This document shows positions 9,141 to 9,560 of a DNA stretch of 16,137 nt, piece after piece (position 1 is the stretch's first letter; the number at the start of each line of letters is the position of its first letter). The DNA is from a virus (Duplodnaviria; Heunggongvirae; Uroviricota; Caudoviricetes). A program made the position numbers and the translations under genes. The DNA is taken from IMG/VR virus record IMGVR_UViG_2671180543_000010; one strand, 5' to 3'. The notes beneath the pieces were generated by a model, which worked only from the letters and a program-made list of their open reading frames with translations, did not search any database and had not been told where the DNA came from.

Positions 9141-9166
9141 GAACAACCACGAACAAATAATTTACA
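9141..9166. promoter_or_regulatory. Three GAACAA repeats at 10-bp period (box ACAACGTGGAACAA) about 225 bp upstream of the capsid gene, adjacent to a TATTTT -10-like element on the minus strand
   Basis: Direct reading; on the minus strand reads TTGTTCgtggTTGTTCcacgTTGTTC followed 16 nt later by TATTTT. Candidate activator-dependent late promoter. Confidence 0.5.
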
Positions 9167-9197
9167 AAAAATAACAAAAAGCCGGATTGCTCCGGCT
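9166..9197 (-). terminator. Intrinsic terminator (stem GCCGGA-TTGC-TCCGGC plus U-run) downstream of cargo gene
   Basis: Hairpin followed on minus strand by TTTTTGTTATTTTTTG; identical stem-loop repeated at 9544-9559. Confidence 0.7.
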
Positions 9198-9216
9198 GTA
9201 TGTGCTGTATGGGTGC

Positions 9217-9441
9217 TCAGTCTCTGATCCCTTTCAGAAATTCTATCAATGCATCTGTCTGTTCAGGATTTACTGCCAGCATTTCACCGGATAGCGCGCA
9301 ACGAACAAAACCATGATGATCCTTTTCAATCAGCGCCCCCGTTTCCAGAAATGCGCGGTAATCAGTGATATTCATCGTCTCCATGTTGTCAGCATGGTAT
9401 TTATCACGCTGTTTAAGTATCTCATCAAATTTCATCGGCAT
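9217..9441 (-). CDS. Hypothetical 74-aa acidic protein (MPMKFDEILKQRDKYHADNMETMNITDYRAFLETG...), stand-alone cargo gene
   Basis: ORF with GAGGA Shine-Dalgarno 7 nt upstream of internal ATG (track ORF extends to 9519 with an unlikely N-terminal extension); bracketed by two identical terminators. Confidence 0.55.
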   Translation of the reverse strand: MPMKFDEILKQRDKYHADNMETMNITDYRAFLETGALIEKDHHGFVRCALSGEMLAVNPEQTDALIEFLKGIRD

Positions 9442-9535
9442 TGCGTTTTCCTCTGTTGTGTCTGTTTGTTTCAGATAGTAACTATGCCGGACCGTGACGA
9501 AAAGCCAGTAGTGCTCCATACCGTTTCAAATGACG

Positions 9536-9560
9536 CAAAAAAAGCCGGATTGCTCCGGCT
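9536..9560 (-). terminator. Intrinsic terminator, identical stem-loop to 9181-9196 (GCCGGA-TTGC-TCCGGC plus U7)
   Basis: Direct reading; follows the stop of the 53-aa gene at 9583. Confidence 0.7.

What the first reader, a model, noticed from the sequence alone, without database searches (positions are those of the whole stretch)
9166..9560. Single-gene cargo cassette bracketed by two identical terminators
The 74-aa acidic ORF (9217..9441) has its own Shine-Dalgarno and promoter-like region and is flanked on both sides by the same stem-loop GCCGGATTGCTCCGGC plus U-run. This looks like an autonomously expressed insert placed between the replication/accessory block and the late operon, a position where satellites often carry anti-phage or anti-defence cargo. 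I do not recognise the protein.
Basis: partly seen in the sequence, partly recalled or inferred. Interest (0 to 1): 0.7.

Follow-up and report, generated by a model that had tools for sequence, protein, structure and literature searches.

The report
Optional small gene between twin terminators
A real, expressed 74-codon gene of unknown function lies between two identical transcription terminators in an E. coli phage satellite; related satellites lack exactly this unit, with the break inside the terminators, so it is optional cargo rather than core machinery.

Summary
A 74-aa ORF (9441..9217, minus strand) with a GAGGA ribosome site lies between two exact copies of a 23-nt terminator sequence. 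The window is an EcCIEDL933-type capsid-forming PICI (a phage satellite) between phoQ and roxA. The ORF is the orthologue of EDL933_1785/ECs_1589.

The gene is real. dN/dS is 0.09-0.24, homologues at about 40% identity occur in many Enterobacterales satellites, and a published proteome reports a 9-kDa EDL933_1785.

It is not core. Related E. coli islands lack exactly the 363-bp unit (gene plus one terminator). They keep one hybrid terminator, with at least four different crossover points. In a capsid-selected sample, 35 of 72 islands carry the family. The others hold different cargo in that slot, including an Argonaute-associated nuclease. The same cassette also occurs in PICIs with a lambda-type head module.

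Two claims remain unsupported: its own promoter (no sigma-70 match) and a defence or anti-defence role. There are no Pfam, NCBIfam or PADLOC hits, no fold match, and no homologue in 50,697 phage genomes.

Verdict: a genuine optional accessory cassette in a known satellite hotspot. It encodes an uncharacterised, satellite-specific small acidic protein. Interest is moderate.

The parts
9536..9560 (-). Upstream terminator (term1): stem-loop AGCCGGA-GCAA-TCCGGCU at 9560..9543, followed by U7. It ends the ssb'-'perC accessory operon.
9442..9535 (-). 5' leader of the 74-aa gene, with GAGG at 9453..9450. No sigma-70-like promoter was detected here.
9217..9441 (-). The 74-aa gene, orthologue of EDL933_1785 / ECs_1589 (WP_001132078/79/80) and member of phrog_1957. 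A small acidic alpha/beta protein with no known fold.
9198..9215 (-). Two tandem 9-nt units between the stop codon and term2 (+ strand GCTGTATGT at 9198-9206, GCTGTATGG at 9207-9215). Seen only in the window and its closest relative; other relatives have one unit.
9165..9197 (-). Downstream terminator (term2): the same stem-loop at 9197..9180, followed by UUUUUGUUAUUUUUUG.
9176..9198 (.). Direct repeat copy 1 (23 nt, exact). Partner of 9539-9561. Proposed substrate for precise loss or gain of the 363-bp unit.
9539..9561 (.). Direct repeat copy 2 (23 nt, exact).
8917..9168 (-). Adjacent conserved packaging-operon leader; this is context and the downstream boundary of the slot. It contains the TTTGTAAAT motif at 9168..9160, a candidate promoter TTTACC-16-TATTCT at 9111..9084, and a highly structured 5'UTR.
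9583..9744 (-). Upstream neighbour: a 53-aa fusion of the ssb 5' end and the perC 3' end, left by a ~495-bp deletion relative to relatives.

Best explanation
The region is one small accessory gene flanked by two copies of the same predicted intrinsic terminator. It lies at the junction between the replication/accessory block and the packaging operon of an EcCIEDL933-type capsid-forming PICI.

Shown:
- The gene is real, under purifying selection, and belongs to an uncharacterised family restricted to satellites and islands of Enterobacterales and a few other Proteobacteria.
- The 363-bp unit (gene plus one terminator) is present or absent as a block in otherwise near-identical islands, with crossover points inside the repeated terminator.
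- The slot holds other cargo in other islands.
- The same cassette is shared by PICIs with unrelated head modules and at least four kinds of replicase.

Inferred:
- The upstream terminator ends the accessory operon. The downstream one would shield the packaging-operon promoter, which lies further on, from upstream transcription.
- The gene is reached mainly by read-through from the perC/pchE operon or from a weak, unrecognised promoter. This fits its detection in uninduced cells together with PchE.
- The two direct repeats make the cassette prone to precise deletion, and allow re-acquisition by homologous recombination. This explains its patchy distribution.

Most speculative: the 8.6-kDa acidic protein has no catalytic motif, membrane segment or recognisable DNA-binding fold. 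It most likely acts by binding another protein, as a dispensable modulator of the host, the helper phage or a host defence, rather than as a building block of the satellite.
For: Anatomy.

Island identity: int, AlpA (PF05930), DUF4222, D5-type primase, iteron ori, HK97 capsid/protease/portal, HNH, TerL. It has the same phoQ-roxA site and gene order as EcCIEDL933.

A real gene: dN/dS 0.09-0.24. 22 representatives at about 40% identity and 67 clusters, all unnamed.

Protein detected: PMC5120812 reports the '9 kDa EDL933_1785' of CP-933C together with PchE in uninduced DMEM cultures. The capsid is gene 1786.

Presence/absence as a block: L002 versus L027 shows an exact 363-bp indel with one hybrid terminator. 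Further junction types appear in L029 and L032-L047. Islands with the gene have two terminator copies (9 of 11); islands without it have one copy (10 of 10).

E. coli genome counts: the gene is in 539 genomes and this capsid allele in 361; both together (>=80% of a capsid-leader-gene query covered) in 216.

Capsid-selected sample: 35 of 72 islands carry the family, on the same strand.

Alternative cargo in the slot: Aga/pPIWI-associated nuclease (E 2.5e-83), DUF6402+DUF6201, a lipoprotein, and other small acidic proteins.

The same cassette precedes a lambda E/D/Nu1-type module in O157:H7 SS52.

Mosaic history: dS up to 0.37 in the gene, while the flanking capsid is about 98% identical.
Against: No direct functional evidence exists for any role.

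The family keeps the same position across at least ten genera, usually 219-296 nt before the capsid gene, with about 40% identity. That could equally mark a semi-core regulator.

The direction of the polymorphism (loss versus gain) is inferred, not shown.

Equating EDL933_1785 with this ORF rests on gene numbering, size and neighbourhood, not on peptide sequences.

Counts are not dereplicated and depend on megablast thresholds.

Read-through of a terminator with a U7 tract is assumed, not shown, and PMC5120812 lists EDL933_1785 as not in an operon.
Confidence: 0.6

Rival explanations
1. Semi-core regulator of the satellite's late (packaging) operon. In this reading the protein is a small DNA- or RNA-polymerase-binding factor that acts on the conserved leader just downstream of it.
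For: In 13 of 14 gene-selected loci with enough flanking sequence, and in 35 capsid-selected loci, the gene is on the same strand as, and upstream of, the capsid gene. It is usually 219-296 nt away, directly before the conserved TTTGTAAAT motif and structured leader. A family profile gives a weak match to the wing-like segment of the DNA-recognition domain of N.BspD6I (E 0.0025 for the sequence, 0.46 for the stretch).
Confidence: 0.15
2. Anti-phage defence or superinfection-exclusion gene, expressed from the resident island and protecting the host.
For: The slot is a cargo hotspot. Other islands carry an Argonaute-associated nuclease and toxin/immunity-like pairs there, and He et al. 2025 expect immune systems at this position. 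The protein is detectable without induction.
Against: No PADLOC, Pfam or NCBIfam hit. It is 74 aa with no enzymatic motif, nucleotide-binding site or membrane segment. It has no partner gene.
Confidence: 0.1
3. Counter-defence or host/helper-modulating inhibitor: a small acidic protein that binds and blocks a host defence protein, or a helper-phage or host factor, to the satellite's benefit. This is the functional half of the best explanation, scored on its own.
For: It is small, acidic, soluble and non-enzymatic, and the AlphaFold2 model built with a family alignment is confident (pLDDT 86). The family is restricted to satellites and absent from 50,697 phage genomes. It is dispensable yet under purifying selection. 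It is shared by PICIs that depend on different helper types.
Against: No similarity to any known inhibitor. It lies behind a predicted strong terminator with no recognisable promoter, which is odd for a gene needed immediately on entry. EcCIEDL933 is reported not to interfere with its helper.
Confidence: 0.3
4. Spurious ORF or decaying remnant. In this reading the two terminators are just a chance duplication.
For: This particular island is decaying: it has a capsid nonsense codon and an ssb-perC deletion.
Against: dN/dS is 0.1-0.2. Full-length homologues occur in many genera. The protein has been detected by mass spectrometry. The AF2 model is confident with an alignment. The 16-mer occurs twice against 0 expected.
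Confidence: 0.02

Closest known systems
EDL933_1785 / ECs_1589 of EcCIEDL933 (cryptic prophage CP-933C; annotated 'prophage Sp7' in the Sakai RefSeq record), the prototype capsid-forming PICI
   Same: It is the same gene at the same place: 94.6% amino-acid identity, directly upstream of capsid gene 1786, and between the same two terminators.
   Different: The window's island has a D5-type primase instead of the DUF927 primase, an ssb-perC deletion and a capsid nonsense codon. No published function exists for the gene. As far as the text shows, the EcCIEDL933 packaging-module mutagenesis did not cover it: the one hypothetical gene named there, 1792, maps by gene order to the 60-aa ORF between HNH and terS.
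Phage 'morons' (extra transcription units between conserved genes of lambdoid and HK97-like phages; my own knowledge of Juhala, Hendrix et al.)
   Same: A single small gene inserted between two functional modules. It is bounded by a terminator, is present or absent among close relatives, and is expressed from the resident element.
   Different: A moron is defined by its own promoter, and none is detectable here. This unit has the same terminator on both sides, and those repeats are themselves the recombination points.
Accessory or immune hotspots of PICIs (variable regions before and after the packaging operon; He et al. 2025 preprint, citing Fillol-Salom et al. 2022)
   Same: Same location. 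Related islands carry a defence-associated nuclease and other cargo there.
   Different: The 74-aa family is not a known immune system. It recurs across genera much more than typical hotspot cargo. Where extra cargo is present, it lies upstream of that cargo, next to the ori.
Small satellite-encoded interference or modulator proteins (SaPI Ppi, PtiA/PtiM; E. coli PICI Rpp; my own knowledge)
   Same: Small satellite-specific proteins encoded between the replication and packaging functions. They act by binding a partner protein.
   Different: No sequence or fold similarity was found. No interference phenotype is known for EcCIEDL933. This is a functional analogy only.

Membership tests
Capsid-forming PICI (EcCIEDL933 type) | PICI backbone: integrase, AlpA, replication module with adjacent iteron ori, all transcribed in the same direction | tested here: met
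   int 16137..14908. AlpA PF05930, E 5e-18. D5_N/DUF5906/Pox_D5 primase. Iterons CTGTCTACC at about 10340-10620.
Capsid-forming PICI (EcCIEDL933 type) | Own HK97-type head and packaging genes (capsid, protease, portal, connectors, HNH, TerS, TerL) and no tail genes, in about 15 kb | tested here: met
   Gene order and the phoQ-roxA site are identical to EcCIEDL933. The capsid carries a TGG>TGA nonsense codon in this copy, so the copy is probably defective.
Capsid-forming PICI (EcCIEDL933 type) | Induced by a helper phage and transferred using helper tails | not testable with these tools
   Shown experimentally only for EcCIEDL933 itself.
Moron / autonomous accessory transcription unit | Own promoter immediately upstream | tested here: not met
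   No sigma-70-like site on the minus strand at 9442-9600, either at 9 of 12 or at 8 of 12. An activator-dependent or non-consensus promoter cannot be excluded.
Moron / autonomous accessory transcription unit | Own terminator immediately downstream | tested here: met
   Term2 at 9197..9180 plus a U-run. Homologues in five other genera also have a hairpin with a T-run right after the stop codon.
Moron / autonomous accessory transcription unit | Present or absent between otherwise collinear relatives | tested here: met
Known anti-phage defence systems (PADLOC-DB v2) | Significant match to a defence-system protein model | tested here: not met
   0 families at E <= 0.01.
Winged-helix / HTH DNA-binding regulators | Recognisable wHTH fold or Pfam HTH domain | tested here: not met
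Rho-independent terminator | G+C-rich hairpin followed directly by a U-tract on the transcribed strand | tested here: met
   Termination efficiency in vivo was not tested.

The most novel reading that the evidence does not exclude
The 74-aa protein founds a new, satellite-specific family with a new small alpha/beta fold. It works as a protein inhibitor, either counter-defence or helper/host modulation. The identical flanking terminators act as a homology-based 'plug-in/plug-out' system that lets PICIs of different types swap or shed it. If so, the other small acidic proteins at the same position in sister islands would be functional alternatives.
Probability: 0.25. Interest if true: 0.6.

Novelty: new member of a known kind. 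Interest (0 to 1): 0.42.

Why it matters
Capsid-forming PICIs are a recently described and widespread class of phage satellites. Their packaging genes have been dissected, but their accessory genes have not.

This gene is carried by about 10% of complete E. coli genomes (539 of 5426), including EHEC O157:H7. It is made in uninduced cells, is restricted to satellites, and has no known relatives or fold. Nature has already done the knockout many times: near-isogenic islands with and without it exist. That makes its contribution to satellite transfer, helper interaction or host defence directly testable.

The terminator-to-terminator indel also gives a concrete example of how module boundaries in satellites are reshuffled.

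Tried and rejected
1. Hypothetical gene 1792. I considered whether the ORF was the 'hypothetical gene 1792' whose mutation reduces EcCIEDL933 transfer. It is not. The capsid is gene 1786, and by gene order 1792 is the 60-aa ORF between HNH and terS.

2. Universally conserved core gene. This was my reading after the first 13 gene-selected loci. I rejected it as ascertainment bias once a capsid-selected sample showed 35 of 72 and gene-less E. coli islands were found.

3. Paralogous leaders. I tested whether the leader of the gene and the capsid leader are paralogous, that is, whether the repeat extends beyond the terminator. The local alignment score was 16 against shuffles of 15.3 +/- 2.2, so there is no similarity beyond the 23 nt.

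5. Homologues in real phages. tblastn of three family members against 50,697 phage records found none.

6. AlpA-dependent antitermination through the two terminators, by analogy with P. aeruginosa AlpA (PMC7969949, PMC9371919). No paper in the searched library links this to PICIs. The capsid operon appears to have its own promoter downstream of term2. I keep this only as an untested idea.

7. Betaproteobacterial and metagenomic homologues (L015-L018, L024). Their contexts were uninformative.

8. My first two terminator scripts had a de-duplication bug. It was fixed.

Full report
**What is at the coordinates.** On the minus strand, 9441..9217 encodes a 74-aa protein, MPMKFDEILKQRDKYHADNMETMNITDYRAFLETGALIEKDHHGFVRCALSGEMLAVNPEQTDALIEFLKGIRD. 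A GAGG lies 8 nt before its ATG. The protein is 8.57 kDa, pI 5.0, with 14 acidic and 9 basic residues.

The exact repeat is 23 nt long, at 9176-9198 and 9539-9561, spaced 363 nt apart. On the gene's strand both copies read AGCCGGA-GCAA-UCCGGCU followed by U7 or U5. They are the clearest terminator-like sites on that strand, together with one after the capsid gene. Their fold energies are -15.7 and -14.1 kcal/mol, z about -4. The one exception is the 'promoter-like region': no sigma-70-type match exists between the upstream terminator and the ATG, even at 8 of 12.

**What the window is.** All large genes run on the minus strand, in this order:
- integrase, AlpA (PF05930), DUF4222, a D5-type primase, and an iteron origin;
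- three small ORFs;
- the cassette;
- HK97-type capsid, prohead protease, portal, connectors, HNH, TerS and TerL.

phoQ lies on the left flank. The gene order and the phoQ-roxA insertion site are those of EcCIEDL933, the prototype capsid-forming PICI (Alqurainy et al. preprint). In the literature the capsid is 'gene 1786' (He et al. preprint). The ORF is therefore 1785 (ECs_1589 in Sakai). The 'hypothetical gene 1792' of the published mutagenesis is the 60-aa ORF between HNH and terS, not this gene. As far as the text shows, the gene was not among the packaging-module genes that were mutated.

**The gene is real.** Among E. coli alleles dN/dS is 0.09-0.24. It matches phrog_1957 over its full length (E 2e-40, function unknown) and nothing in Pfam, NCBIfam or PADLOC. 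An exhaustive HMMER search finds a small family of 66-96-aa proteins at about 40% identity. A profile search finds 67 clusters in Escherichia, Klebsiella, Citrobacter, Enterobacter, Salmonella, Xenorhabdus, Arsenophonus and others, all 'hypothetical'. No homologue exists in 50,697 deposited phage genomes, tested with three family members.

A proteomic study of O157:H7 grown in DMEM without inducer lists 'Phage protein EDL933_1785'. [quoted passage not shown] Equating that entry with this ORF is my inference from gene numbering, size and neighbourhood.

**Is it core or cargo?** My first answer was 'core', and it was wrong. Loci fetched by similarity to the gene all showed it between the replicase and the capsid gene. 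This held in Enterobacter, Kluyvera, Serratia, Leclercia, Phytobacter, Pectobacterium and Gilliamella, in loci carrying a protein cluster annotated as multispecies Enterobacteriaceae, and in Xenorhabdus. It held across D5-type, DUF927-Toprim and RepA-helicase replicases. That sample is biased by construction. Three unbiased tests changed the picture.

(i) Counts in 5426 complete E. coli genomes. The gene occurs in 539 genomes and this capsid allele in 361. In 216 genomes a single match covers at least 80% of a query spanning the capsid 5' end, the leader and the gene. Three classes appear:
- Class A has capsid, leader and gene.
- Class B has capsid, leader and term2 but no gene.
- Class C has the gene and term2, followed by something else.

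(ii) Class B. JNE141411 (with the gene) and ECA64 (without) carry the same PerC protein. They differ by an exact 363-bp indel, the gene plus one terminator. ECA64 keeps a single hybrid terminator, with its 5' flank from term1 and its 3' flank from term2. EC8 and the IMG/VR loci L032-L047 show at least four further junction types. In these the crossover lies in the 5' flank, in the stem-loop, or 3' of the loop, and they occur in different PerC backgrounds. Among 21 E. coli-type loci, gene-positive islands have two terminator copies (9 of 11) and gene-negative islands have one (10 of 10). KY176 carries a different ~400-nt insert in the slot.

(iii) A capsid-selected sample. Of 80 IMG/VR loci chosen by capsid similarity, 72 had at least 2 kb of upstream sequence, and 35 of those carry the family. 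It is always on the capsid strand. Most often it lies 219-296 nt before the capsid ATG, and otherwise 400-1900 nt with extra genes in between. Islands without it hold other things at that place:
- an Argonaute-associated (pPIWI-associated) nuclease (PADLOC E 2.5e-83);
- a DUF6402/DUF6201 pair;
- a lipoprotein;
- two other families of 61-65-aa acidic proteins at the same distance (~235 nt) from the capsid gene.

In gene-positive islands of other genera, further unrecognised cargo sits between the gene's terminator and the leader, mostly antisense. [quoted passage not shown]

**Class C.** In O157:H7 SS52 the same site holds a PICI whose morphogenesis module is lambda-type: E-like capsid, D-like decoration protein and Nu1-like TerS. 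The term1-gene-term2 cassette is there too, followed by a different late region. The cassette is thus shared by satellites with unrelated head modules. Its synonymous divergence (dS up to 0.37) contrasts with about 98% identity of the adjoining capsid gene. The terminators are mosaic boundaries.

**How it most likely works.**

Shown:
- The gene is a discrete, optional unit bounded by direct repeats.
- It is under purifying selection.
- It is restricted to satellites.

Inferred:
- Term1 ends the accessory operon. In this copy that operon's last gene is a truncated ssb'-'perC fusion.
- Term2 keeps upstream transcription out of the packaging operon, which seems to have its own promoter. The candidate is TTTACC-16-TATTCT at 9111..9084, and the same plan recurs in other genera after a conserved TTTGTAAAT motif.
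- With no recognisable promoter of its own, the gene is probably reached by partial read-through of term1. This would fit its co-overexpression with PchE, although the paper lists it as not in an operon.
- The 23-nt repeats 363 bp apart favour precise deletion. The several distinct junctions argue for repeated events. Gain by recombination at the terminator is equally possible mechanistically.

Function is unknown. I favour a protein-binding modulator (counter-defence, or helper or host modulation) over a defence effector or a late-operon regulator. The reasons are its size, acidity, lack of any motif, dispensability, satellite restriction and independence of head-module type. Confidence in that last step is low.

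**Comparison and novelty.** The island type, the hotspot and the existence of the ORF are known. What is new here:
- the gene family is defined and shown to be satellite-specific, with no detectable fold relatives;
- the terminator-bracketed unit is shown to be the actual unit of gain and loss, with crossovers inside the terminator;
- the cassette is shown to be shared between cf-PICIs and lambda-type PICIs.

It passes the terminator and presence/absence tests for a moron-like unit and fails the promoter test. It is not a member of any known defence family. I file it as a new member of a known kind: accessory cargo in a PICI hotspot.

**Limits.**
- Genome and IMG/VR counts are not dereplicated and depend on megablast and HMM thresholds.
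- The window contains masked N-runs.
- No expression or phenotype data were generated here.
- The structure is a prediction.

Noticed in passing
window 8089-8091 (minus strand, capsid codon 276 from ATG 8916; codon 292 of the longer GTG-8964 ORF): The major capsid gene carries an in-frame TGA where three relatives have TGG. It splits into 8916..8089 and 8088..7759, so this island copy probably cannot make capsids.
   Followed up: yes
window 8917-9168 (minus strand); L004-L010 and L019 leaders: The packaging-operon leader is strongly structured: -91.6 kcal/mol against -69.2 +/- 4.7 for shuffles, z -4.8. A 17-bp hairpin lies at 9007-9054. A hairpin plus U7 at 8924-8953 ends just before the capsid AUG and buries the AGGA. 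Other genera share a TTTGTAAAT motif 204-230 nt before the ATG, a candidate promoter, and a nested helix with compensatory changes (7 of 22 pairs). There is no Rfam hit. This may be an undescribed cis-regulatory 5'UTR.
   Followed up: partly
window 9583-9744 versus L002/L003: The window and its closest relatives lack about 495 bp. What remains is a 53-aa ORF: residues 1-24 match the start of the ssb ORF and residues 25-53 match the PerC C-terminus. RefSeq still calls it a 'PerC family transcriptional regulator'.
   Followed up: partly
window 10340-10620 (minus strand): Replication origin: iterons CTGTCTACC / GGTAGAC flank an A+T-rich stretch directly after the primase gene. In other genera the 74-aa homologue starts about 25-40 nt after the last iteron. 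The iteron sequence differs with each replicase type.
   Followed up: partly
L028 (O157:H7 SS52, NZ_CP010304.1) 1470-4790: At the same phoQ site, many O157:H7 strains carry a different satellite with a lambda-type E capsid, D decoration protein and Nu1 TerS, but no portal, protease or TerL. It shares the accessory block and the cassette with the cf-PICI.
   Followed up: partly
L030 (JNEC-KY176) 3020-3420: The slot holds a ~400-nt insert with no annotated gene and its own terminator (AAAAAGCCCGATAAG...CTTATCGGGCTTTT). Part of it is homologous to the late-promoter region of the lambda-type island, so this island is a recombinant between the two satellite types.
   Followed up: partly
L053, L069, L075, L080 (~235 nt upstream of capsid); L099; L061/L085: Alternative occupants of the slot: two unrelated families of 61-65-aa acidic proteins at the same distance from the capsid gene, an Argonaute-associated nuclease without an obvious Argonaute nearby, and a DUF6402+DUF6201 pair.
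   Followed up: partly
L004-L010, between the homologue's terminator and the leader: Variable cargo of 0.3-1.4 kb, mostly antisense to the island. It includes membrane proteins and a DUF3775 protein. None matches PADLOC.
   Followed up: partly
window ~4540-4600 and ~5400-5550: Runs of N (masked sequence) inside terS and the head-tail connector genes. ORF calls there are unreliable.
   Followed up: no
L001 3083-3196, equivalent to window ~9482-9595: RefSeq annotates a 37-aa 'trigger factor' CDS (a frameshifted pseudogene in EDL933) that runs straight across the upstream terminator. It is almost certainly an annotation artefact.
   Followed up: no
L022 (Xenorhabdus, NJAK01000002.1) 1-9645: Two copies of the homologue-capsid-protease-portal block lie head to head on one contig. 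This is either two adjacent satellites or an inverted duplication.
   Followed up: no
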